Below are positions 1,083 to 14,734 of a DNA stretch of 38,662 nucleotides, in pieces. A model generated the notes under the pieces. The model saw only the letters and a list, made by a program, of their open reading frames with translations. It had not been told where the DNA came from and made no database searches. A program made the translations under genes and the position numbers. Position 1 is the stretch's first letter. Each line of letters opens with the position of its first letter. Source of the DNA: a virus (Duplodnaviria > Heunggongvirae > Uroviricota > Caudoviricetes); IMG/VR virus record IMGVR_UViG_2541047816_000001. One strand, given 5' to 3'.

Positions 1083-1102
1083 TACTGTTTTTTTATACAG
1101 TG
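1083..1102. promoter_or_regulatory. LexA-box-like motif TACTGTTTTTTTATACAGTG (CTGT-N8-ACAG) in the int upstream region
   Basis: Seen directly: matches SOS box consensus TACTGT-(AT-rich N8)-ACAGT; lies 30-50 nt upstream of the int start codon on the minus strand. Confidence 0.4.
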
Positions 1103-1143: not shown

Positions 1144-1824
1144 TTAATGCATTTTAGTTACATCTATGTTTTTATTGATTGTCTCTTTGTTACTGGAAAG
1201 TCTTTGTTCTTTTCTTTTAATGTATAACTCCCAACGAATATTATTCATTATGATAGCGTAGATATTAAAAATAAATGTCTTTACTACTAACACTAAGTAA
1301 ATAAGGCTAGTCCCTATAACACAGTATCCAAATTTAATAATTAATTCTTTTATCGATTTTGAATATGGAAATAAATCAATTATATTGCCAATTATTCCAT
1401 CTTTTTGACAAAAGAGAATTATTATTAGATAAATGAAAGTAAACGTAATAAATGAGATGAAAACTTTCATAAATGCCATAAAGTTATATTTTAACGTGGG
1501 CATCTGTGTTTTTTTATGTTGTATTGACATCATCTGAAGAAACATCTCGGGTTTGGATAGTGTTGCAAATATTGTGAAACCAGCAATGAGAAAACCTAAG
1601 GTTGTCACTGCAAAGTTAAAACCAATCAAAGCCCAGTTTCTAATGTCAGATACTAAATGAGACATATCCTTCTCAATAAAAAAAGAGTTTGTTAATAAAA
1701 AAATAGATGCTGTGAGCAAAATGCAAATATGGAATGTACTAATAGTAATCCGTTTGCAGAGCAAGTAAACATCCCAAAGGTTTTTCTCTTTGGTTATTTC
1801 TTTAGCATCTATTTTATTTATCAT
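1144..1824 (-). CDS. Hypothetical integral membrane protein, about 4 predicted TM helices, part of AT-rich moron cassette
   Basis: 226-aa ORF; four long hydrophobic stretches; very low GC (about 30%) versus prophage backbone; start overlaps upstream gene stop by 4 nt. Confidence 0.6.
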   Translation of the reverse strand: MINKIDAKEITKEKNLWDVYLLCKRITISTFHICILLTASIFLLTNSFFIEKDMSHLVSDIRNWALIGFNFAVTTLGFLIAGFTIFATLSKPEMFLQMMSIQHKKTQMPTLKYNFMAFMKVFISFITFTFIYLIIILFCQKDGIIGNIIDLFPYSKSIKELIIKFGYCVIGTSLIYLVLVVKTFIFNIYAIIMNNIRWELYIKRKEQRLSSNKETINKNIDVTKMH

Positions 1825-2849
1825 CGACCAAACCTTTCATATATATTGCTAATAATTCTAATCGTCTTTTGTGAAAGAGAACGGGGTAGAGATATCTTAC
1901 CTTCTTCTACAAGATTTTCATACCGCTCATAACTTTCATTTGCAGCTACTACCGTATCCTTTGATAATTCATTCATCTCACTTAACAAAACAAAGTCATC
2001 ATTGCTACCTTTGATTATATCACCATTGTCATCATATCCTTTAATATTTATTCCTGAATTAGCCAATCTGGTTGCTGATGTGAGTTGTTCTAAAACAGCA
2101 CCATGATTCAAGCCTGAATCGGTGTTTGAAAAGCGAATAGATGTAGAAATACTTCCCATTTCGTCTCCGGCACTTTCAAGTGACTCCCAAAATTCGTCGT
2201 TATCAATTTCTTCTTGATTTGTAGGGAGAAGTTTTACTGAGACATTTTGGATTTTATTAAAATTATCAATAAATTGCTCTAGGCTTTGTTTGTCAGTTAA
2301 CGGCGTTATTCTTAGCTTCGGGCGTTTGATTTCGTTCCGTAAGCTTTTTTTAGTGACTCGAGGTAAGTCAGGGTTTTCTTTGCGTTCTTCTTGTGCGGTT
2401 TCGTATAAATGAGATATGTATTTTTCATATTCTATGTTTAAGAAACACTGACTTGTTGACTGAAAGTTTTGAATTGTGGGAGCACCACTAACTTCCTTGC
2501 AAAGAATTAATCTGTGAGTGTTTAATATTAGAAGAAAGAAAGAGCTCGGGGCTGTTTCAAGCTCTTGATGATCTTCAACCAAATCAGCACCATCAAATAC
2601 TTGTTCTCTGGTTAATAATGTATTCTTAATAATCCGACCTTTAATTCCGAGTACTGGGGGTGTTGCTTCTTCGTCAAGTATGACGCATTCAGTATCAATG
2701 AAAAAGAACTCTGATTTGTCAGATATTCTGCGGATGTTTGCCATCTCCAAAAAAGAGGGGAAAACAATTTCATCATAATAGTCTAGCAAAACATCATCAC
2801 CAAAACGGAGAGTATAATTTCCAAATTCGAGTTTTTTTATAAAATCCAT
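1821..2849 (-). CDS. Hypothetical soluble protein, 342 aa, first gene of AT-rich cassette downstream of the repressor
   Basis: Long ORF with acidic stretches and no motif I recognise; 15 nt downstream of the repressor stop, co-oriented, translationally coupled to the membrane protein gene. Confidence 0.6.
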   Translation of the reverse strand: MDFIKKLEFGNYTLRFGDDVLLDYYDEIVFPSFLEMANIRRISDKSEFFFIDTECVILDEEATPPVLGIKGRIIKNTLLTREQVFDGADLVEDHQELETAPSSFFLLILNTHRLILCKEVSGAPTIQNFQSTSQCFLNIEYEKYISHLYETAQEERKENPDLPRVTKKSLRNEIKRPKLRITPLTDKQSLEQFIDNFNKIQNVSVKLLPTNQEEIDNDEFWESLESAGDEMGSISTSIRFSNTDSGLNHGAVLEQLTSATRLANSGINIKGYDDNGDIIKGSNDDFVLLSEMNELSKDTVVAANESYERYENLVEEGKISLPRSLSQKTIRIISNIYERFGR

Positions 2850-5923: not shown

Positions 5924-6222
5924 CAGGGGCTGTGCGTATCCATCAATTAAAAATTGCACCTAAGTATTTCAACGCTGTGGTTGCAGGTCAAAAGACGGCT
6001 GAACTTCGTAAAGACGATCGTGGCTATAAAGTTGGTGATGTTCTTTCTCTTTGCGAATGGAAGCATGGCGTATTTACGGGTAGGGAATGGGCCGCGGTTA
6101 TCTCTCATGTGCTTCCGGTTAATGACGTCATGGCAGTTTCAGAACAATGGGTGATGCTATCAATTCGCTCATTAACCCCATTAGAAGCTTTAGGATATGT
6201 TATTGCAGGAGGTGCTGTATGA
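5920..6222 (+). CDS. Small PUA/ASCH-like domain protein
   Basis: 100-aa ORF from ATG 5920 (ATGA overlap with previous stop, GGAGGTG RBS); sequence pattern ..[28 protein letters not shown].. resembles ASCH/DUF-type domains common in P2-like early regions (family assignment tentative). Confidence 0.45.
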
Positions 6223-7085
6223 GCACCATCCTGAAATGGGCGGGAAATAAAACCGCAATTATGTCCGAACTGAAAAAACACCTTCCTGCTGGCCCGCGAC
6301 TGGTTGAACCTTTCGCGGGTTCCTGTGCTGTGATGATGGAGACGGATTATCCAAGCTATCTGGTTGCGGATATTAATCCTGATTTAATCAACCTCTATAA
6401 AAAGGTTGCCGCTGATTGTGAATCGTTTATATCTCGCGCCAGAGTTTTATTTAAGGAAGCAAACAGGGAGGTGGCTTATTACAACATAAGGCAGGAGTTT
6501 AATTACTCAAATGAAATTACTGATTTCATGAAAGCGGTATATTTCCTGTATCTCAATCGTCACGGTTACCGTGGTTTATGTCGCTATAACAAGAGCGGGC
6601 ATTTCAACATTCCCTACGGTAATTATAAAAATCCGTATTTCCCAGAAAAAGAAATTCGCGCATTTGCAGAAAAAGCCCAGCGGGCAACGTTTATCTGCGC
6701 CAGCTTTGATGAAACGCTGGCGATGTTGAAGGCGGGGGATGTGGTGTATTGCGATCCGCCGTATGACGGCACGTTTTCCGGTTATCACACTGACGGCTTC
6801 ACTGAAGATGACCAGTATCACCTGGCATCCGTTCTTGAACATCGGTCATCAGAAGGACATCCGGTCATTGTTTCTAACAGTGACACATCCCTGATCCGTT
6901 CGCTGTATCGCAATTTTACTCACCACTACATCAAGGCAAAACGCAGCATCGGCGTAGCAGCTGGTGAGAGTAAATCTGCAACAGAAATCATCGCTGTTTC
7001 TGGGCGCGCTGCTGGGTGGGATTTGAGCCTTCGCGTGGCGTGGATAGTTCTGCCGTGTACGGAGTGCGTGCATGAGCCATGCTGA
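6219..7085 (+). CDS. DNA N6-adenine methyltransferase, Dam family
   Basis: N-terminal LKWAGNK, FAGSCAV SAM-binding region and catalytic DPPY motif (CDPPYDGTF); ATG 6219 overlaps previous stop. Confidence 0.8.
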
Positions 7086-9486
7086 TATGAACAACTGCAG
7101 CGGCTTTAACGAGGCCGCCGCAGCATTCTCATGGAACAGCCCGAAAAAGGCTATTAACCCTTATCTGGACCCGGCGGAAGTTGCGCCGGTTTCTGCGCTT
7201 TCAAACCTGATCACTCTGTACGCTGCCGATAACGAGCAGGAACAACTGCGCCGCGAGGCACTGAGTGATCAGGTCTGGGAGCGTTATTTCTTTAATGAAT
7301 CCCGTGATCCTGTCCAACGCGAAATGGAGCAGGATAAGCTCATTAGCCGGGCAAAGCTGGCGCATGAGCAGCAGCGTTTTAATCCAGATATGGTCATTCT
7401 GGCGGACGTCAATGCCCAGCCTTCCCATATCAGCAAGCCGCTGTTGCAACGTATTGAATACTTCAGCAGCCTAGGCAGGCCAAAGGCTTATTCCCGCTAT
7501 TTGCGTGAGACGATTAAGCCATGTCTGGAACGACTGGAGCATGTACGCGACAGTCAGCTATCCACTTCTTTTCGCTTTATGGCAAGCCATGAAGGGCTGG
7601 ACGGCCTGCTGATCCTGCCTGAAATGAGTCAGGATCAGGTGAAACGCTTGTCTACCCTTGTCGCTGCGCATATGAGCATGTGCCTTGATGCAGCTTGTGG
7701 CGATTTGTATGTCACCGATGACGTTAAGCCAGAAGAAATCCGCAAGACATGGGAAAAGGTGGCAGCGGAAACCCTGCGTCTGGATGTCATCCCGCCTGCG
7801 TTTGATCAACTCCGCCGGAAAAGAAACCGCCGTAAACCCGTGCCCTATGAACTCATTCCGGGTTCGCTGGCGCGTATGTTGTGCGCCGACTGGTGGTACC
7901 GGAAATTATGGAAGATGCGTTGCGAATGGCGGGAAGAGCAGTTGCGTGCTGTTTGCCTGGTCAGCAAAAAAGCATCTCCCTATGTCAGCTATGAAGCCGT
8001 GATGCATAAACGTGAGCAGCGCCGTAAGTCGCTGGAGTTTTTTCGTTCTCATGAACTGGTGAACGAAGACGGCGACACGCTGGACATGGAGGATGTGGTA
8101 AACGCCAGCAGCAGCAACCCTGCGCATCGCCGCAATGAGATGATGGCCTGTGTTAAAGGCCTGGAGCTTATCGCGGAAATGCGCGGTGACTGCGCCGTTT
8201 TCTACACCATCACCTGTCCGTCACGTTTCCATTCCACGCTAAATAACGGCAGGCCCAACCCAACCTGGACAAATGCGACGGTAAGACAAAGTAGTGATTA
8301 TCTGGTCGGCATGTTTGCTGCATTTCGTAAGGCGATGCACAAAGCCGGATTGCGCTGGTATGGCGTGCGGGTGGCTGAGCCGCATCATGACGGTACAGTT
8401 CACTGGCACCTGTTGTGTTTTATGCGCAAAAAAGACCGCCGCGCCATCACTGCATTACTGCGTAAGTTTGCCATCCGTGAAGACCGCGAGGAGCTGGGCA
8501 ATAACACTGGGCCGCGCTTTAAGTCTGAGTTGATTAACCCGCGCAAAGGTACGCCAACAAGCTACATCGCGAAATACATCAGTAAGAACATGGACGGGCG
8601 TGGTCTGGCTGGCGAGATCAGCAAGGAAACGGGGAAATCCCTGCGTGATAATGCTGAATACGTTAATGCTTGGGCGTCTCTGCATCGTGTTCAGCAATTC
8701 CGCTTCTTTGGCATTCCGGGGCGTCAGGCTTACCGTGAACTGCGATTGCTGGCTGGTCAGGCGGCAAGGCAACAGGGGGACAAAAAAGCAGGTGCGCCGG
8801 TACTGGATAACCCGCGCCTTGATGCAATCCTGGCTGCTGCTGATGCTGGTTGTTTTGCCACCTACATTATGAAGCAGGGCGGCGTACTGGTTCCCCGCAA
8901 ATATCACCTTATCAGAACAGCTTATGAAATTAACGAAGAGCCGACCGCCTATGGCGATCACGGTATTCGTATTTATGGCATCTGGTCACCCATTGCAGAG
9001 GGCAAGATTTGTACTCATGCAGTGAAGTGGAAAATGGTTCGTAAGGCCGTTGACGTTCAGGAGGCGGCAGCCGACCAGGGCGCTTGCGCCCCTTGGACTC
9101 GTGGCAATAACTGTCCCCTTGCTGAAAATTTGAACCAACAGGAGAAAGATAAATCAACAGATGGGGATACCAGAACTGACATTACCTGTATGGATGACAA
9201 GGAGTTGCACGATTACCTGCATAGTATGAGCAAAAAAGAGCGCCAGGAACTGGCAGCAAGATTACGCCTGGTGAAACCGAAACGGCGTAAAGACTACAAA
9301 CAGCGAATTACAGAGTATCAGCGTCAGCAGCTCGTCTATGAACTGAAGTCAAGAGGATTTGATGGCAGCGAGAAAGAGGTCGATTTACTCCTTCGCGGTG
9401 GCAGTATTCCGTCAGGAGCAGGCCTGCGTATCTTCTATCGGAACCAGCGTTTGCAGGAAGATGATAAGTGGCGGAACCTGTATTAA
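7072..9486 (+). CDS. A: Rolling-circle replication initiation endonuclease (P2 gpA-like)
   Basis: 804-aa ORF; HUH-type motif (GTVHWHLL) followed by paired-tyrosine motif (YIAKYISK); position after early genes. Confidence 0.85.
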
Positions 9487-9577
9487 TCACGTGGGTTAAC
9501 AATTCGTGCTCTTAATAATACCAGGCATATCAGGCTGATGAACGTAAAAAACGTTTTACATCAGTAAGATTATTATA

Positions 9578-9597
9578 TACTGTAAATATAAACAGTG
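9578..9597. promoter_or_regulatory. LexA-box-like motif TACTGTAAATATAAACAGTG
   Basis: Seen directly: CTGT-N8-ACAG with TACTGT/ACAGT flanks and AT-rich spacer, in AT-rich intergenic region about 40 nt upstream of a small ORF with strong RBS. Confidence 0.5.
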
Positions 9598-9638: not shown

Positions 9639-9809
9639 ATGCAGGACTATTTTTTGGAGTCTTTGAAGCTCCAGCGCATTGATTTTTTTCTTAAGCTTGT
9701 AGCGGCTAGTGAGTGTAGTGATGAAGAGAAGGGGCTGGCTCTGCAGTGGGTTTCTGAGTTGACTGATGAGCTGATGGCGAGAATTCGCGCTCATGAATAC
9801 AACCACTAG
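9639..9809 (+). CDS. Small hypothetical protein (56 aa), possible SOS-controlled antirepressor-type gene
   Basis: ATG preceded by TAGGAGGAAAG RBS; below the 60-aa threshold of the ORF track; function inferred only from position downstream of the LexA-like box. Confidence 0.35.
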   Translation: MQDYFLESLKLQRIDFFLKLVAASECSDEEKGLALQWVSELTDELMARIRAHEYNH

Positions 9810-9973
9810 ATGGATCTTCCCAGTAGTTTTTCGAAACTGAAAACAACCGAGTGAAAGTTACGACACTTGAGCTTTTCACTTGGGTTATAATCAGAATACT
9901 TGTTTTCGTCCACAAATGTACATGCCATGCATTAATGTGGTGATAGCTTTCAATTTTTACTAAATGGTTTCAA

Positions 9974-10528
9974 TTGCTTCTTATGAATCATGTAATGTTA
10001 GATATAGAAACATTGGATGTTGAAAAAACAGCTTATATCCTTTCAGTTGGTGCGGCTTTTTTCGTGCCGGAGACTGGCGAGATTGGTCCGGGTTTCTATC
10101 AAGTTATTTCGCTTGATCATGAACAAGCAGGCAGAACCATTGCCCCCTCTACTGTAAAGTGGTGGATGAATCAAAGTACTGAAGCTAAAAACGAAAATTT
10201 TGATGGCACTAAGGACCTTTTAGAGGTTCTGAATGAATTTGTGGCATTTATTCTTCATAATCGTACTGGCCGAGTAAAAGTGTGGGGAAACGGGAAAGAG
10301 TTTGACTGCACGATCATGCATCATGCCCTGTTACAGGCGGGTCTGGATTGCCCATGGTCATTCAGAGATACTCTTGACGTTAGAACCATCTTAGCACTTG
10401 GTGAAAGCAAAGGAATTTTTTCTCATGCTGATAAAAATTTCACTGGCATTAGGCACACAGCATTCGATGATGTTTTATTTCAGATCGCACAGGTTTCTCA
10501 CATCTATATGAATTTAAATAAAAAATAA
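9974..10528 (+). CDS. DEDDh-family (DnaQ-like) 3'-5' exonuclease domain protein
   Basis: Motifs in order: DIETLD (Exo I), VWGNGKEFD (Exo II region), HTAFDD (Exo III His/Asp). True start probably ATG 9983 or 9995 rather than TTG 9974. Confidence 0.6.
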   Translation: MLLMNHVMLDIETLDVEKTAYILSVGAAFFVPETGEIGPGFYQVISLDHEQAGRTIAPSTVKWWMNQSTEAKNENFDGTKDLLEVLNEFVAFILHNRTGRVKVWGNGKEFDCTIMHHALLQAGLDCPWSFRDTLDVRTILALGESKGIFSHADKNFTGIRHTAFDDVLFQIAQVSHIYMNLNKK

Positions 10529-10543
10529 ATATAGGACTTAGCT

Positions 10544-11455
10544 ATGGATTGCTTAGATGTAACCTATTGGACTGAGCTAGATGTTTTCGCACAGTATCCT
10601 GTTGGTGCTCGCTCTAAGGCATTGGTTATTTCCCCTGATGTTGCCCCCCATGGTATCAAAGCATCGTGGCCGTATCTTTTTAAGAGAAGTATTAAAAAAT
10701 ACCCAGATCAATTTTGGTGTGAGATCGTTGCCTACAGGATTGGATTGCAGCTTGGTTTTAATGTCCCCAAAGCAGTTCCTTCGTTAAAGACTAATGATTT
10801 GGGGCATACGTTTTGCGGGGCCCTCATTGAGTGGTTTCATCATAAAGATTATGAGAAATTTGCTCCCGCTGGTGATTACTTTGTTCGAAGAGATCCAAAT
10901 TTTGATCGTGAGAAAGGAGCTAAGCATTCCATTGAAGGGCTGAGGATTATCGCGAAAGCTCTTAAAGTTGACTATGTTGAGTGGTTGGAGAATATGGCTC
11001 TCTTTGACGCAGTAATAGGTAATACAGATAGACATCAAGAAAACTGGGGGTTTATCTTCTCCCCTTTAACCAGCGAGTGTCAGCTTGCACCATTTTTCGA
11101 TAATGGTACGAGCTTATGCTACGAACGCTTTCCGGAACATGTTGCTGATTGGACCGATCATAGACTCAGGGAGCATGTTAGCCGGGGAAAGCATCATTTG
11201 CGTAAAACTCTGGGCAAAGATGAGTATCAGAGATTAGGTCATTTAGAGTTAATCAAAGAACTTTGTGATAAAAAAGAAGAATTAAAACAGCGGGTAGCTG
11301 AAAGACTGGCTCGTTTGAACCATGACTTTTGGGACTCAACTTTTGCGGAGTTGACGGAAATAAACTGCCCTGTTCCGCTGACTAGAGAACGTGCTGCATG
11401 GATTGTTCGTGTAACAAACATGCGTATTGAACTGATTAAAGGTGTTACTTCATGA
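10544..11455 (+). CDS. HipA-family Ser/Thr kinase core lacking the HipA N-subdomain (HipT-like)
   Basis: Three HipA kinase motifs in correct order and spacing: G21-ARSK (cf. HipA GAQEK), IGNTDRHQEN at 158-167 (catalytic loop, cf. HipA GATDGHAKN), FFDNGTS at 184-190 (Mg-binding, cf. HipA FYDI); 303 aa. Confidence 0.6.
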   Translation: MDCLDVTYWTELDVFAQYPVGARSKALVISPDVAPHGIKASWPYLFKRSIKKYPDQFWCEIVAYRIGLQLGFNVPKAVPSLKTNDLGHTFCGALIEWFHHKDYEKFAPAGDYFVRRDPNFDREKGAKHSIEGLRIIAKALKVDYVEWLENMALFDAVIGNTDRHQENWGFIFSPLTSECQLAPFFDNGTSLCYERFPEHVADWTDHRLREHVSRGKHHLRKTLGKDEYQRLGHLELIKELCDKKEELKQRVAERLARLNHDFWDSTFAELTEINCPVPLTRERAAWIVRVTNMRIELIKGVTS

Positions 11456-12156
11456 CTATCTTAATAGAAAAAATTCCCATGCCAAGTAGGCTCTTACTGA
11501 CATGGCAACCGACCGACGGCGGCTCTCGCTATGTCGTTGGTGAACTTCTTCAAGATGAGTCTGAAGGCTACGAGTTTAATTATCTTACGGATAGCAAAGA
11601 TTTTGCTAAAGCTGGGGATAAAGGCTTTCACGGTTTTCCTGCTTTTGACATAAAAGTTACGACTCATCGCAAAGACGTTATGCAAACCTTTTCAAGAAGG
11701 TTACCCTCCAGGAAAAGAGAAGATTTTGCCGATTACTTGCTGACGTTTCGTCTTCCTGCTGATTTTAGAGAGAATGACTTCGTTTTGCTCGCTTGTACTG
11801 GCGGAAAAGTGGCTAGTGATGGTTTTTATTTTGTCCCAGACTTGTCTTCTATTCGGCCACCTTTTGATTATGTCATGGAGGTCGCCGGAACGAGACACAT
11901 GATTAAGGAAGGGCGTCTAGCTCTTGACGAGATATCAATTGGTGATGAAGTCATATTGCGCAATGAAGATACCAATACTGTTGATCCGCTGGCCATATTA
12001 GTAACGAAAAACGACAATCATCTAGGGTATGTCAACAAGGCATTGTGCGCCGCATTACGAGATCTTAGTAAAAACCATGATATCAGTGGAGTGGTCGTAC
12101 GTAAAAATGGCTCTTCGGATAGGCCTTTGATTTATGCAAAAGTATCTGTTAGATGA
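11452..12156 (+). CDS. HipS-like N-domain fused to C-terminal HIRAN domain
   Basis: N-terminus LLTW...VGEL...F.Y pattern parallels the HipA N-subdomain (LVTW..VGEL..FKY); C-terminus GDEVILRNEDTNTVDPLAILVTKNDNHLGYVNKALCAALRDL fits the HIRAN signature; start overlaps kinase stop by 4 nt (ATGA). Confidence 0.5.
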   Translation: MTILIEKIPMPSRLLLTWQPTDGGSRYVVGELLQDESEGYEFNYLTDSKDFAKAGDKGFHGFPAFDIKVTTHRKDVMQTFSRRLPSRKREDFADYLLTFRLPADFRENDFVLLACTGGKVASDGFYFVPDLSSIRPPFDYVMEVAGTRHMIKEGRLALDEISIGDEVILRNEDTNTVDPLAILVTKNDNHLGYVNKALCAALRDLSKNHDISGVVVRKNGSSDRPLIYAKVSVR

Positions 12157-12466
12157 TGCATGTTTATTCATGCTTGCTAGTGATGCTGCATTCATAGAGT
12201 CTGTCAACTATGGAGATTTTTTCGTCTCATGCAACTACATTAAATTACCATTAAGTGGGTTGACGTTGCGGGGGAAGCATTACACGTCAGTATTGGTGCG
12301 TCTGAAGTGTCATGCCGAAAAGGTATGAAAAAGCCGCTTGGTAACATAACTATTCGCAATGATGTTGTAGGAAGCGAACTGGAAATGATAGCAATGGATG
12401 CTGTTGATGTAGTGTATGTATATGCTGCATGAGTTTGCATGAACGTTTGAGGCTCGTTTTTGTTAA

Positions 12467-12492
12467 GGCCCGCCAGAACTGGCGGGCTTTTG
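12467..12492 (+). terminator. Rho-independent terminator candidate downstream of the accessory operon
   Basis: GC stem GCCCGCC-loop-GGCGGGC followed by TTTTG. Confidence 0.45.
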
Positions 12493-12536
12493 CTCATGTC
12501 ATGCAGGTGCATGAAAACCACTACATAAAGCGGGCA

Positions 12537-12560
12537 GGCGTGGCGGGGATACGAGCGCAC
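12537..12560. other. Candidate cos site region (cohesive end)
   Basis: GGCGTGGCGGGGA... resembles the start of the P2/186 19-nt cohesive-end sequence as I recall it; expected location between the accessory region and Q. Confidence 0.3.
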
Positions 12561-12827
12561 GCCGCGGGTTGAAATAGTAAAATTCACTTAGCCTCAGGCC
12601 CGCTGATGGTTTTCTTCTGAAAGGGAGGGCGCGTTTTTGTGCAATCTTGTTTGAAGGGATTTAAATAAATGTTGAATGTGTTCCGGAGTTGGCTGTAGAT
12701 TTAGTGTTCTGTCACAAGTTGCAGTGATAGGTAGCAAACCTTTAAAAGGTTCTGCTATTGTTTCATTAAAGATTTATAGTCTTTGTCCGAAAATGACATT
12801 AAAGTAGTCGCCTTTAATGTCGTAAGC

Positions 12828-13382
12828 ATGAAGGACAGAGAATTGAACTTAGAGCAGATTGCCAGTCAAAGTATAAGTAACCTTCAGTTTCTCCTCGATA
12901 CTTTGAAGATGCCGTTGGCTGTTGGTCCAATCAGTGATGAAGACTATGTGATCCTGACCACAGGATACGCTCAGCTAGAATGGGATTATGGTTTTTCTCG
13001 GTTTGGCAATCGAAGTGATAAGTTTGAATTTTGTTTGAAGCTCCTTGCGGGGCCACTTAGGCATATCCCTTCTGGCGCAGCTATGTGCACCTTTGACGAG
13101 GACGCTGGAGTCATAGAGATCCATTTTGTGGAATCTTTTGTGAAAGATGATGACGTAGAGCACCCTCTTTACGGCAACATGTTCATGGTTACATTGTGGG
13201 CGGTATATCTTTTTGGTAGCGCGGTTGGGTGTCAAGAGATTCGGATCCCTGAAGCCCTGAATCAAAAAGTTGCTGACCACTATAAAAAATTTGGTTTTAA
13301 AGGTGATATAAGCTTGCTTTCGGCACCTTTTGCTACAATAACTGATGTAGTAAGACGCTACATTACTTCTAAGAAACAGTAG
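12828..13382 (+). CDS. Hypothetical cargo protein, weak GNAT-like C-terminal pattern
   Basis: ORF open from 12783 (TTG) with first ATG at 12828; C-terminal ..NQKVADHYKKFGFKG.. weakly resembles GNAT motif B; assignment tentative. Confidence 0.4.
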   Translation: MKDRELNLEQIASQSISNLQFLLDTLKMPLAVGPISDEDYVILTTGYAQLEWDYGFSRFGNRSDKFEFCLKLLAGPLRHIPSGAAMCTFDEDAGVIEIHFVESFVKDDDVEHPLYGNMFMVTLWAVYLFGSAVGCQEIRIPEALNQKVADHYKKFGFKGDISLLSAPFATITDVVRRYITSKKQ

Positions 13383-13461: not shown

Positions 13462-13641
13462 ATGACTATGACGCATAGTGACAAGAAAGCTCAGAAGCAT
13501 TACTCAGTATCTGATGTTTTCAGCCGTATGGGCGTCGCGATGGAAGAACTACTTCAAGCGGCCCCACATATGATGCAGGACTGCAAATTTGAAGGAAATG
13601 AGCTGCATGGTAAGCTCAAAGAAAAGCAGAAAGCTGCTTAA
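13462..13641 (+). CDS. Small hypothetical protein (59 aa)
   Basis: ATG preceded by AAGAGGAAAT RBS; followed by a strong terminator; below the ORF-track threshold. Confidence 0.35.
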   Translation: MTMTHSDKKAQKHYSVSDVFSRMGVAMEELLQAAPHMMQDCKFEGNELHGKLKEKQKAA

Positions 13642-13696: not shown

Positions 13697-14734
13697 CTAG
13701 TCAGTATTAAGCTCATATGGATTGAATCGGACTACCTCTTCACCAAGCCATTCATTTAGCTCCAGCAATCGCTTTTGTAACGGTACTATTTCGTTTCTTG
13801 TGAAGACGCGACTGGCCTTTTCCACATCCCCAAAACCGCCGGTATTGTTGGGAATGATACCCATCATTTGCGGCGGCACACGATGCGCCGCCATCATGTC
13901 GTCCCGGCTCACGTTCTTGATATTCAGGAACTCATCCTTCGCCGCCACTTCTGACAACGGGATAATCTGAAGCCCATCCTTTTTGCCGTTAGGCGAGTAC
14001 ATAAACAGGTTACGGAAGTTACCAGGACCTTTGGCACTTTTCATTGCGTTGCGGAGGTTGTTCACATCCTCCTGGTTCTGCGCGGCGTCGGTCATGTACA
14101 TGATGAAGCCCGCATGGCTGCCGTTAATGTAATACTTCCGGCGGAACAGCGTGGCGGACTCGTTGAGCAGGGCTGACGGAATGGCAGAAAGATAACCGGG
14201 CAGGCCGTAGATCTCCTGGTTGATGTCCGGCTCCATCAGATGAAAAATGCTGCCTTTCGTGAACTGATACGGCTGGGTTGTCATACCGTATTGCACAAAC
14301 CAGTAGGTATCCAGGTCTAACCCGCGTCGGGTGTATTTTGCCAGAGCAGGCTCAAGGGCTATAACTTCACCGAAGCGGTTCGTGCGTTTCTCCAGGTAGG
14401 CGTTACCAAAAACCAGAAAGTCCTGTACAAAACGCGAAAAAGCCTGCTGGCTGAGCAGCGGGTGAGGGATGTAGGTGCTGGTCAGAATGTTGCACTTCAC
14501 TGCAATCGGTGAGCTATGATGTATGGCGGCGCGGAAGGTTCGCGCCAGTCCGTCGAAACTCACTGGTGGCTCATACCAGCGATCCATCTGTACGCATTCC
14601 ACATAGTCCAGCAGTTCGCGGCGGTCCAGAACAGGAACGGGATCACCGAAGCTGAATGCTTCGGCTGAAGTCTGGCTTTTATGCTGGATCTGTTTCGTCG
14701 ACGCAGCGCGGTTCTTCTTACTCTTTCCCATCAA
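13697..14734 (-). CDS. Q: Portal protein (P2 gpQ-like)
   Basis: 345 aa; size and position upstream of terminase ATPase; P2 late-gene synteny. Confidence 0.8.
   Translation of the reverse strand: MMGKSKKNRAASTKQIQHKSQTSAEAFSFGDPVPVLDRRELLDYVECVQMDRWYEPPVSFDGLARTFRAAIHHSSPIAVKCNILTSTYIPHPLLSQQAFSRFVQDFLVFGNAYLEKRTNRFGEVIALEPALAKYTRRGLDLDTYWFVQYGMTTQPYQFTKGSIFHLMEPDINQEIYGLPGYLSAIPSALLNESATLFRRKYYINGSHAGFIMYMTDAAQNQEDVNNLRNAMKSAKGPGNFRNLFMYSPNGKKDGLQIIPLSEVAAKDEFLNIKNVSRDDMMAAHRVPPQMMGIIPNNTGGFGDVEKASRVFTRNEIVPLQKRLLELNEWLGEEVVRFNPYELNTD

What the first reader, a model, noticed from the sequence alone, without database searches (positions are those of the whole stretch)
10544..12156. Split HipA-type kinase with a HipS-like::HIRAN fusion partner in the P2 gene A-cos hotspot: candidate DNA-end-sensing abortive-infection module
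Seen in sequence: the 303-aa protein has the HipA kinase-core motifs in the right order (GARSK loop, catalytic IGNTDRHQEN, Mg-binding FFDNG) but lacks the HipA N-subdomain. The next gene overlaps by 4 nt; its N-terminus carries the HipA N-subdomain pattern (LLTW..VGEL..F.Y) and its C-terminus a HIRAN-type pattern. Established knowledge: HipA and HipT are toxins that phosphorylate aminoacyl-tRNA synthetases (GltX and TrpS); in HipBST the N-subdomain is the separate protein HipS and acts as antitoxin; HIRAN domains bind 3'-OH DNA ends; the region between gene A and cos/Q in P2-like prophages is a known hotspot for anti-phage cargo (old, tin). Inference: a kinase toxin is held in check by a HipS-like domain tethered to a DNA-end sensor, so that phage replication intermediates or DNA damage release the kinase and arrest translation. 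I vaguely recall bioinformatic surveys listing HipA-like kinases with HIRAN-containing partners, but I know of no experimental characterisation, and none in a P2 hotspot.
Basis: partly seen in the sequence, partly recalled or inferred. Interest (0 to 1): 0.9.

Follow-up and report, generated by a model that had tools for sequence, protein, structure and literature searches.

The report
HipA-type kinase with HIRAN partner
A P2-type prophage of E. coli carries, in its known cargo hotspot, a three-gene cassette (small exonuclease, HipA-type kinase, and a partner that joins a kinase-inhibitor domain to a DNA-end-binding domain); it is real, but it is already catalogued and still functionally unproven.

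Summary

It is not new. The architecture is "hipIN" (Gerdes 2021), and that paper already proposed the same DNA-end-sensing abortive-infection idea. It is PADLOC candidate PDC-M03. Rousset 2022 lists this exact arrangement, with the same protein accessions, in the P2 hotspot. They also cloned a fused relative (pFR108, "Exonuclease + HipA") and list it among tested systems that were not validated on their eight-phage panel.

What I add:
- In P2-like phages the unit is a three-gene cassette with an upstream DEDDh exonuclease (26/27 P2-like viral loci).
- Split and fused forms coexist.
- The kinase was never found without HipN (59/59), while orphan HipN copies exist.
- 10/72 species-representative loci sit directly downstream of type I R-M hsdS.
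- A LexA box lies upstream.

Function remains untested. Interest is moderate.

The parts
9578..9596 (+). LexA (SOS) box TACTGTAAATATAAACAGT, overlapping the -10 of a promoter-like site (TTTACA at 9556) upstream of the small ORF at 9639-9809. It is a possible SOS-controlled entry point for transcription into the cassette.
   Evidence: Exact match to TACTGT-N8-ACAGT; 5 matches in the window at <=1 mismatch against 0.36 expected. CTGT-N8-ACAG lies between gene A and the exonuclease in 10 of 12 diverged cassette-bearing P2-like loci. Read-through into the cassette is inferred, not shown.
9639..9809 (+). 56-aa conserved backbone ORF (phrog_698, unknown function) that precedes the variable cargo. 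It is shared with prophages that carry DinI instead of the cassette.
   Evidence: The segment 9489-9814 is 93.6% identical in L002, which lacks the cassette.
9974..10528 (+). Rv2179c-like DEDDh 3'-5' exonuclease (RefSeq start at 9995), 15 nt upstream of the kinase. It is the first gene of the three-gene cassette in P2-like phages.
   Evidence: Pfam PF16473 E 5.1e-50; phrog_255 'exonuclease'. DEDDh residues are invariant in 10 cassettes at 37-52% identity. It lies directly upstream of the kinase in 26/27 P2-like viral loci and in 0 of about 30 non-P2 loci.
10544..11455 (+). HipI-type short HipA-superfamily Ser/Thr kinase (303 aa). Gly-rich loop at aa 21-25, catalytic D162, Mg-binding D186. Presumed toxin/effector.
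   Evidence: (PDC-M03A, E 4e-36).
11452..12156 (+). HipN (234 aa): HipS-like domain (about aa 1-130) fused to a HIRAN domain (about aa 135-234). Presumed neutraliser plus nucleic-acid 3'-end sensor.
   Evidence: (PDC-M03B, E 4e-36).
12465..12495 (+). GC-rich hairpin (AAGGCCCGCCAG-aa-CTGGCGGGCTTT) followed by TTTTG. It is terminator-like and lies in a segment conserved among P2-like phages just before cos.
   Evidence: The conserved block 12412-12562 is shared with loci carrying other cargo. The terminator scan did not flag it, so this is weak evidence.
12537..12554 (+). cos-like site (GGCGTGGCGGGGATACGA; my recollection of the 186 cos sequence is GGCGTGGCGGGGAAAGCA). It places the cassette between gene A and cos.
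   Evidence: 2 matches at 3 mismatches; 0.13 expected. The core 12499-12551 is conserved at 80-87% even in Yersinia and Serratia P2-like loci.

Best explanation
This is the P2-prophage-borne version of the hipIN module (PADLOC candidate PDC-M03), carried as a three-gene operon: DEDDh 3'-5' exonuclease, HipI kinase, HipN.

Most likely mechanism:
1. The kinase is a growth-arresting effector. By analogy with HipA and HipT it would phosphorylate an essential translation factor such as an aminoacyl-tRNA synthetase.
2. [quoted passage not shown]
3. The HIRAN domain, which keeps the 3'-OH-end pocket, acts as the input. Binding of free 3' DNA ends or short 3'-OH DNA fragments that appear during phage infection or DNA damage changes the HipN-kinase complex and frees kinase activity. 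The infected cell stops growing (abortive infection).
4. Sister phages carry kinase and HipN fused in one polypeptide. Control must therefore be conformational, not by degradation of a labile antitoxin.
5. The co-inherited exonuclease most plausibly trims or clears the 3'-end ligand and so sets the trigger threshold or prevents self-activation.

Shown here: domain identities, conserved catalytic and pocket residues, obligate pairing, fusion/fission, and defence-type genomic context.
Inferred: toxicity, neutralisation, the ligand, the target, the role of the exonuclease, and anti-phage activity.
For: Identity:
- Pfam HipA_C and HIRAN above their cut-offs; PDC-M03A and PDC-M03B at E 4e-36 each.

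Active enzymes:
- Kinase catalytic residues are invariant in 58 homologues.
- Exonuclease DEDDh residues are invariant in 10 diverged cassettes.
- The HLTF DNA-end pocket motifs align to conserved HipN residues: R148/H149, N175..D178..A181, G192-Y193.

Toxin/neutraliser logic:
- 59/59 kinases of >=25% identity have HipN immediately downstream.
- HipN occurs without a kinase, next to an 84-aa kinase remnant (L059) or an IS element (L072).
- HipS is the experimentally shown antitoxin of HipT, acting through a plug at the Gly-rich loop (PMC10627512).

Physical coupling:
- Kinase, HipS-like and HIRAN are fused in one 547-aa ORF in three diverged P2-like lineages, in phrog_26212, and in P0204 and P0240.

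Defence context:
- The P2 gpA-cos hotspot (PMC9122126).
- 10/72 species-representative loci lie 23-157 nt downstream of hsdS of type I R-M.
- A different HipA-like kinase pair (PDC-M66/DS-6/HipAD) is a validated kinase-dependent defence system (PMC13092281, PMC12548924).

Exonuclease link:
- 26/27 P2-like loci carry it.
- In Rousset's table DUF5051 appears with HIRAN or HipA_C+HIRAN in the entries displayed.
- An unrelated DEDD family (diDNase) is adjacent to HipA+HIRAN genes in Gram-positive bacteria (PMC11706625).
Against: - No experiment shows toxicity, neutralisation, DNA binding or phage defence for any hipIN system in the literature I could search.
- The only test found is of the fused relative with its exonuclease and native promoter (pFR108). 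It is listed among tested systems that were not validated on an eight-coliphage panel (PMC9122126, Table S2B and main text).
- The exonuclease is absent from 70/72 non-P2 loci, so it is not needed for the core function.
- The hsd-linked loci are partly one mobile island (hsd genes 76-87% identical), so they are not all independent events.
- The kinase is structurally closest to CtkA rather than to HipA or HipT, so an aminoacyl-tRNA synthetase target is only an analogy.
- A LexA box upstream suggests expression on DNA damage or prophage induction, which fits a phage-lifecycle role as well as defence.
- No kinase-HipN complex could be modelled here.
Confidence: 0.5

Rival explanations
1. HIRAN is a localiser, not a release switch. 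HipN tethers an active or partly active kinase to DNA 3' ends (replication forks, rolling-circle intermediates, recessed ends at cos). There the kinase phosphorylates DNA-bound proteins of a competing phage or of the host replisome, rather than a translation factor.
For: - The fused forms keep kinase and HIRAN permanently together.
- The HipN model is a compact two-domain unit (pTM 0.90).
- The kinase is closest to CtkA, not to the synthetase-targeting HipA and HipT.
- Eukaryotic HIRAN domains recruit enzymes to 3' ends (PMC8262856, discussion).
Against: - The HipS fold is the known inhibitory module of HipT.
- The strict dependence of the kinase on HipN, with orphan HipN tolerated, fits neutralisation better than targeting.
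Confidence: 0.15
2. It serves the prophage's own life cycle. It would be switched on by the SOS response at induction to shut down host translation or to process phage DNA ends. Alternatively it acts as an addiction module that stabilises the prophage. Either way it would not be a defence against other phages.
For: - The LexA box is conserved upstream in 10/12 cassette-bearing P2-like loci and lies directly before the exonuclease in L112.
- The cassette replaces the SOS gene dinI at the same position.
- The fused relative was not validated as a defence system.
- P2 hotspots also hold non-defence cargo such as partition systems (PMC9122126).
Against: - Most family members are chromosomal and not in P2 phages.
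- 10/72 are embedded directly after type I R-M hsdS.
- Fused forms cannot work by decay of a labile antitoxin, so classical addiction is unlikely.
- The LexA box belongs to the phage backbone and is also present with other cargo.
Confidence: 0.15
3. The exonuclease is an unrelated passenger. It was acquired once together with hipIN by an ancestral P2-like phage and kept by linkage only, so the functional system is the two-gene pair.
For: It is absent from 70/72 species-representative HipN loci and from all non-P2 viral loci. Rv2179c-like exonucleases are common stand-alone phage genes (605 phage records).
Against: - It is retained contiguous, with a gap of about 15-30 nt, while diverging to 37-52% identity in a hotspot with 1,650 arrangements (PMC9122126).
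- Its catalytic residues are invariant.
- It was not seen in P2 hotspots without a HIRAN gene among the displayed entries of the stored part of Table S5A.
- An unrelated DEDD nuclease family shows the same adjacency in Gram-positive bacteria.
Confidence: 0.3

Closest known systems
hipIN toxin-antitoxin-like module (HipI kinase + HipN), Gerdes, Baerentsen & Brodersen 2021, mBio (PMC8262856)
   Same: Short core-only HipA-family kinase (279-321 aa range) followed by a gene for an N-terminal HipS-like plus C-terminal HIRAN protein. Kinase-first bicistron. The same proposed DNA-end-sensing abortive-infection idea.
   Different: Here it is preceded by a conserved DEDDh exonuclease and sits in a P2 prophage hotspot. 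Placement of this kinase in the HipI subclade of their tree was not tested. The family itself is defined only bioinformatically.
HipL (kinase::HipS-like::HIRAN single polypeptide), same paper; and the P2-borne fused form (pFR108, phrog_26212)
   Same: The same three domains in the same order. The P2-borne fused form is 42% (kinase) and 51% (HipN) identical to the window proteins and occupies the same hotspot with the same upstream exonuclease.
   Different: The window has two ORFs overlapping by ATGA instead of one ORF.
HipBST of E. coli O127:H6 (HipT kinase, HipS antitoxin, HipB)
   Different: No HipB/HTH gene. The gene order is reversed. The HipS-like domain carries a 30-residue extension and a HIRAN domain. 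HipS similarity is undetectable by sequence. The TrpS target is unproven here.
PADLOC candidate PDC-M03
   Same: Both proteins match its A and B models (E 4e-36 each).
   Different: It is a candidate only. No experimental validation was found.
PDC-M66 / DS-6 / HipAD (HipA-like kinase + DUF3037 partner)
   Same: A short HipA-like kinase with a non-HipB partner. Experimentally it is a kinase-dependent anti-phage system in which the partner neutralises the kinase.
   Different: The partner is unrelated (DUF3037/DUF1829, not HipS-HIRAN). The window kinase matches PDC-M66A only weakly (E 0.006).
diDNase-HipA-HIRAN clusters of Actinomycetes and Clostridia (PMC11706625)
   Same: A small DEDD-superfamily 3'-5' exonuclease directly adjacent to a HipA-domain gene and a HIRAN-domain gene on mobile elements, often near type I R-M.
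   Different: diDNases are NrnC-type DEDDy dinucleases. The window enzyme is Rv2179c-like DEDDh (PF16473), and no sequence match to diDNase structures was found.
P2 old / tin and other gpA-cos hotspot cargo (Rousset 2022)
   Same: The same cargo slot next to cos in P2-like prophages.
   Different: Unrelated proteins. old and tin have shown exclusion activity, whereas this cassette has none shown.

Membership tests
HipA-superfamily Ser/Thr kinase (Pfam HipA_C, PF07804) | Profile match above the curated threshold | tested here: met
   40.3 bits against a cut-off of 30.5, E 3.6e-10
HipA-superfamily Ser/Thr kinase (Pfam HipA_C, PF07804) | Conserved Gly-rich loop, catalytic D-x-H-x-x-N loop and Mg-binding D-x-G | tested here: met
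   GARSK at 21-25, D162/H164/N167, D186/N187/G188. All are invariant in 58 homologues.
HipA-superfamily Ser/Thr kinase (Pfam HipA_C, PF07804) | HipA/CtkA kinase fold | tested here: met
   [not shown]
HipA-superfamily Ser/Thr kinase (Pfam HipA_C, PF07804) | Kinase activity, toxicity, and an aminoacyl-tRNA synthetase substrate | not testable with these tools
   Needs expression, in vitro kinase assays and phosphoproteomics
hipIN module (Gerdes 2021) | Short kinase without N-subdomain 1 (279-321 aa) | tested here: met
   303 aa, with the Gly-rich loop at residue 21
hipIN module (Gerdes 2021) | [quoted passage not shown] | tested here: met
   [not shown]
hipIN module (Gerdes 2021) | C-terminal HIRAN domain in the same protein | tested here: met
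   [not shown]
hipIN module (Gerdes 2021) | [quoted passage not shown] | not tested
PADLOC PDC-M03 | Adjacent genes matching the PDC-M03A and PDC-M03B models | tested here: met
   E 4.1e-36 and 3.9e-36
HipBST tripartite system | HipB (HTH) gene plus a separate small HipS upstream of the kinase | tested here: not met
   The upstream gene is an exonuclease, there is no HTH gene, and the HipS-like domain is downstream and fused to HIRAN
HIRAN domain (PF08797) | Conserved 3'-OH-end pocket residues as in HLTF | tested here: met
   The profile alignment to HLTF places R148/H149 on the R-Y of GLRYY, N175/D178/A181 on NPYDKNA, and G192-Y193 on G-H. These are conserved in 55 homologues. The HLTF residue numbers are from my own knowledge.
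HIRAN domain (PF08797) | Binding of 3'-OH DNA ends | not testable with these tools
   Needs EMSA or anisotropy with 3'-OH versus 3'-phosphate DNA
Type II-like toxin-antitoxin pair | The toxin never persists without its antitoxin, while the antitoxin may persist alone | tested here: met
   Kinase with HipN in 59/59 loci. Orphan HipN with a kinase remnant or IS insertion.
Type II-like toxin-antitoxin pair | A labile antitoxin degraded to release the toxin | tested here: inconclusive
   Natural fusions of kinase and HipN argue against this mode, but do not test it
Validated anti-phage defence system | Reduces plating of at least one phage when cloned | tested here: not met
   Not tested by me. 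In the literature the fused relative pFR108 is listed among additional tested systems, not the validated ones, on an eight-phage panel (PMC9122126). The split form of this window has not been tested.
P2 gpA-cos hotspot cargo (Rousset 2022) | [quoted passage not shown] | tested here: met
   The exact arrangement with the same accessions is in their Table S5A.

The most novel reading that the evidence does not exclude
The cassette is a three-part sensor for DNA breakdown or 3'-end products. The HIRAN domain of HipN would bind short 3'-OH DNA (free ends, oligonucleotides or even deoxydinucleotides) released when DNA is attacked during infection or restriction. The co-encoded DEDD exonuclease would continuously clear this ligand and so set the alarm threshold. 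When the ligand outruns the exonuclease, the kinase is released. The same logic would have been assembled twice from unrelated exonuclease families: Rv2179c-like in P2 phages and NrnC-like diDNase in Gram-positive bacteria. That would explain the frequent position directly after type I restriction genes and the SOS box.
Probability: 0.18. Interest if true: 0.8.

Novelty: already known. Interest (0 to 1): 0.4.

Why it matters
If the proposed mechanism holds, hipIN would be an immune switch in which a eukaryote-type DNA-end reader (HIRAN) controls a translation-arresting kinase. That would link DNA-damage sensing to growth arrest, and this cassette would be a tractable E. coli example.

The practical value of this re-examination is different:
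- It shows the finding is not a discovery, because the architecture, the hypothesis and even this locus are published.
- It flags that a close relative has already been tested and was not validated as a defence system.
- It identifies what a proper test must include: the exonuclease gene, both the split and fused forms, relief of possible LexA repression, and a wider phage panel.

Tried and rejected
- **The exonuclease as a diDNase homologue.** Rejected. diDNases are NrnC-type DEDDy enzymes, while the window enzyme is Rv2179c-like DEDDh, and it has no sequence match to diDNase or NrnC structures.
- **The exonuclease as a universal third component of hipIN.** Rejected. It is present in only 2/72 species-representative loci, both in the P2-borne subclade.
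- **pFR108 as a truncated kinase lacking the Gly-rich loop, as its annotated start suggests.** Rejected. The ORF extends upstream to an ATG and includes GARDKK.
- **Promoter/terminator consensus scan of the hotspot.** No enrichment of promoters (7 found against 9.2 expected), so it was uninformative.
- **Literature searches for experimental work on HipI, HipN, HipL or PDC-M03.** None found. Several apparent hits were the surname "Hirano".
- **A kinase-HipN complex model.** Not possible.
- **Low-GC gene pair next to the integrase.** No Pfam or PADLOC match, and not pursued.
Full report
**1. Observation**

The window carries two overlapping ORFs exactly as described: 10544-11455 (303 aa) and 11452-12156 (234 aa), sharing ATGA.

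The first is a HipA-superfamily kinase.
- Pfam HipA_C scores 40.3 bits against a gathering cut-off of 30.5.
- The motifs GARSK (aa 21-25), IGNTDRHQEN (158-167, D162) and FFDNG (184-188) are at the stated positions.
- The key residues G21, R23, K25, K47, D162, H164, N167, D186, N187 and G188 are invariant across 58 homologues of about 40% identity.
- With the Gly-rich loop at residue 21 and only 303 residues, the HipA N-subdomain 1 is absent.

The second protein has a HIRAN domain at aa 140-219 (32.6 bits against 24.7).
- Its model is very confident (pLDDT 94.8, pTM 0.90).
- Foldseek saw only the HIRAN half (HLTF, E 1.6e-5).
- The HipS-like identity cannot be seen by sequence. Pfam, NCBIfam and a family profile against PDB sequences all failed.

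**2. Context**

The window is an E. coli chromosome segment (100% identical to SF-173, FDAARGOS_1283 and GmF052). It holds a P2/186/Fels-2-type prophage integrated beside rcdA.

The pair lies between the replication endonuclease (gene A, 7072-9486) and the portal (Q, 13697-14734, minus strand). A 186-type cos-like sequence, GGCGTGGCGGGGA..., is at 12537-12554, inside a short block that is conserved even in Yersinia and Serratia P2-like phages. The cassette is therefore in the gene A-cos slot. Two further small ORFs of unknown function (12783-13382 and 13462-13641; phrog_4350 and phrog_2741) lie between cos and Q.

Comparison with other prophages shows a mosaic.
- The 2.6-kb block of about 9815-12411 is replaced by dinI plus a hypothetical gene in strain 504239.
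- The cos-Q slot holds an OLD-like ATP-dependent nuclease in strain N1420.

**3. It is a three-gene cassette in P2-like phages**

Directly upstream, separated by 15 nt, is an Rv2179c-like DEDDh 3'-5' exonuclease (PF16473, E 5e-50).

- In every P2-like locus I recovered, the order exonuclease-kinase-HipN is kept. This includes E. coli, Yersinia ruckeri, Serratia and many IMG/VR prophage contigs. All three proteins have diverged together (exonuclease 37-60%, kinase 39-52%, HipN 43-64% identity), while gene A may be only about 31% identical.
- Counting viral contigs, 26 of 27 P2-like loci have the exonuclease and none of about 30 non-P2 loci do.
- The exonuclease's DEDDh residues are invariant.
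- Outside P2 phages the unit is just the two genes. In a scan of species-representative genomes, 58 of 72 HipN loci have the kinase immediately upstream, and only 2 (Shewanella, Serratia) have the exonuclease.

**4. Split and fused forms**

In three diverged P2-like lineages (100%, 87% and 66% identical to one another), kinase, HipS-like domain and HIRAN form one continuous 547-aa ORF with an intact Gly-rich loop.

- PHROGs has this as phrog_26212. The window kinase matches positions 5-307 and HipN matches 320-546.
- Two further fused representatives appear in the 1.84-billion-protein library (P0204, P0240), among mostly split forms. In that search 239 clusters matched at E<=1e-30.
- The junction has no linker, so a one-base change at the ATGA overlap would convert one form into the other.
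- Among complete E. coli genomes the fused cassette is in 61 of 5,426 and the split one in 6.

This is Rosetta-stone evidence that kinase and HipN work as one complex. It also argues that control is conformational rather than by decay of a labile antitoxin.

**5. Toxin/neutraliser asymmetry**

Starting from the kinase, 59 of 59 viral loci with >=25% identity and room downstream have HipN next to it.

Starting from HipN, several loci lack the kinase:
- L059 keeps only an 84-aa C-terminal kinase remnant.
- L072 has an IS element in its place.
- L041, L071 and L093 have HipN directly after a type I R-M specificity-gene sequence.

This is the pattern expected if the kinase is harmful without HipN. 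HipS is the experimentally shown antitoxin of HipT, acting through Glu63 and Trp65 at the Gly-rich loop (PMC10627512). HipN has an invariant aromatic loop, G58-F59-x-G61-[F/Y]-P63-A64-F65, that could play this part. I could not align it to HipS, so this is only a lead.

**6. Defence-type neighbourhood**

I took 150 neighbouring ORFs from about 27 non-P2 loci.
- About 10 match type I methyltransferase models and at least 7 match type I specificity-subunit models.
- Across the 72 loci, 14 have hsdM within 10 kb.
- In 10 loci the module (or an orphan HipN) starts 23-157 nt after hsdS on the same strand. In L039 and L043 it lies between hsdS and hsdM.
- Many of these hsd sets are 76-87% identical and so represent one spreading island. 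Hoeflea (45-51%), L039/L043 (about 40%) and two Halomonas loci (about 30%, opposite strand) look independent.

**7. HIRAN pocket**

A family profile aligns to HLTF so that:
- R148/H149 fall on the R-Y of GLRYY;
- N175, D178 and A181 fall on N-P-Y-D-K-N-A;
- G192-Y193 fall on G-H.

These positions are conserved in 55 homologues. In HLTF these residues form the 3'-OH-end pocket (established knowledge; PMC8262856 discusses the same motifs). DNA binding itself is untested.

**8. Possible SOS control**

A perfect LexA box (TACTGTAAATATAAACAGT, 9578-9596) overlaps the -10 of a promoter-like site upstream of the 56-aa backbone ORF that precedes the cassette.
- CTGT-N8-ACAG occurs between gene A and the exonuclease in 10 of 12 diverged cassette-bearing loci.
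- In the pFR108-type locus a near-consensus box lies right after the gene A stop and about 140 nt before the exonuclease, with no ORF in between.
- The box belongs to the phage backbone, because it is also present where dinI is the cargo.

Read-through into the cassette is an inference.

**9. What is already known**

- Gerdes et al. 2021 (PMC8262856) defined hipIN (short HipI kinase plus HipN, which is HipS-like plus HIRAN) and HipL (all three fused). They wrote that the HIRAN domains might recognise DNA ends of invading phages or replication intermediates, activating the kinase and causing abortive infection.
- PADLOC lists the pair as candidate PDC-M03.
- Rousset et al. [quoted passage not shown] Five of these six accessions are the ones RefSeq assigns to this window's genes; the 199-aa ORF now carries a different accession.
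- They also cloned "Exonuclease + HipA" (pFR108, E. coli TA255), whose genes are 100% identical to my loci L015-L020, the fused form. It appears in Table S2B, "additional tested systems". The main text reports activity for only three of the eight additional P2 systems, and none of the three is this one.
- Their Table S6 also names a Vibrio "HIRAN-kinase" with Couple_hipA/HIRAN domains.
- A 2025 NAR paper (PMC11706625) found that about a third of diDNase genes (NrnC-type DEDDy deoxydinucleotide nucleases of Gram-positive bacteria) are directly adjacent to HipA-domain and HIRAN-domain genes, often near type I R-M. It states that the functional link remains to be investigated.
- A different HipA-like kinase pair (PDC-M66/DS-6/HipAD, with a DUF3037 partner) is an experimentally validated, kinase-dependent defence system whose partner neutralises the kinase (PMC13092281, PMC12548924).
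- I found no experimental study of hipIN itself. Subscription-only papers are outside the library.

**10. Mechanism**

I commit to an auto-inhibited kinase switch, as set out in the best explanation above: HipS-like inhibition of the kinase, HIRAN as the 3'-end input, conformational rather than proteolytic control, and an exonuclease that clears ligand in the P2-borne version.

Two unrelated DEDD exonuclease families have become linked to HipA+HIRAN genes: Rv2179c-like here and NrnC-like diDNase in Gram-positive bacteria. That makes a functional role for a small 3'-5' exonuclease more likely than chance linkage. However, its absence from most loci shows it is an accessory.

My rough confidences are:

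| Claim | Confidence |
|---|---|
| It is a hipIN/PDC-M03 module | about 0.97 |
| Kinase and HipN form a toxin/neutraliser pair | about 0.7 |
| The system defends against some phages | about 0.5 |
| 3'-end binding by HIRAN is the trigger | about 0.35 |
| The exonuclease tunes the trigger | about 0.25 |

The unvalidated pFR108 test weighs against broad activity, but it is weak evidence. It used eight phages and a native, possibly LexA-repressed, promoter in K-12, and only the fused form.

**11. Verdict**

The feature is real and correctly read. It is already described, already hypothesised about in the same terms, and already catalogued at this very locus, so it is not novel.

It remains functionally uncharacterised. 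The conserved exonuclease, the split/fused pair, the R-M embedding and the SOS box give a sharper experimental design than the literature offers. Interest is moderate (0.4).

Noticed in passing
window 9974-10528; loci L004, L009-L024, L105-L131, L144: An Rv2179c-like DEDDh exonuclease is a conserved first gene of the cassette in P2-like phages (26/27 loci) but is absent elsewhere. An unrelated DEDD nuclease family (diDNase) shows the same adjacency to HipA+HIRAN genes in Gram-positive bacteria (PMC11706625).
   Followed up: yes
L015-L024, L034, L112-L117, L121-L123, L126 (for example L112:5995-7638): Sister P2-like phages carry kinase, HipS-like and HIRAN as one 547-aa ORF (phrog_26212). It is ten times commoner in complete E. 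coli genomes (61 against 6) than the split form of this window. It is the form cloned as pFR108 by Rousset et al.
   Followed up: yes
L036, L038, L039, L041, L043, L044, L047, L057, L061, L071, L088, L099: hipI-hipN (or an orphan hipN) sits 23-157 nt downstream of hsdS of type I restriction-modification operons, and in L039/L043 between hsdS and hsdM. Many of these hsd sets are 76-87% identical, which suggests a mobile hsdRMS-hipIN island in Nitrosomonadales and Methylococcaceae.
   Followed up: partly
window 9578-9596 (also 1083-1101); L112:5273-5292: Perfect LexA boxes. One overlaps the promoter-like site before the small ORF that precedes the cassette. A near-consensus box lies directly between gene A and the exonuclease in the fused-form phage. 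A second box at window 1083-1101 lies between the integrase and the low-GC gene pair.
   Followed up: partly
window 12783-13382 and 13462-13641: Two ORFs of unknown function (phrog_4350, phrog_2741; no Pfam or PADLOC hit) occupy a second cargo slot between cos and the portal gene. In strain N1420 (L003) this slot holds a 561-aa OLD-like ATP-dependent nuclease instead.
   Followed up: partly
window 1144-1824 and 1821-2849 (minus strand): Two overlapping ORFs (226 and 342 aa) of very low GC (30-35%) lie between the integrase and the CI repressor. They have no Pfam or PADLOC match and may be another moron or defence cargo.
   Followed up: partly
window about 6219-7075 (L001 8733-9589): RefSeq annotates the prophage DNA adenine methylase upstream of gene A as frameshifted (a pseudogene) in FDAARGOS_1283.
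   Followed up: no
L059:9751-10005; L072:8809-9798: Decay states of the module. An 84-aa C-terminal kinase remnant lies before an intact HipN in Herbaspirillum, and an IS transposase replaces the kinase in Halomonas sp. Y3.
   Followed up: yes
window 12178-12398: About 220 nt after the HipN stop codon is absent from the 94%-identical cassette in L013. This is an indel of unknown content between the cassette and the conserved pre-cos block.
   Followed up: no
Rousset 2022 Table S5A (literature, not the window): Other P2 hotspot arrangements contain a stand-alone HIRAN protein (WP_000185757), in one case together with DarT and a Macro-domain gene. HIRAN therefore recurs as a partner of different toxins in this hotspot.
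   Followed up: no
[not shown]
   Followed up: no
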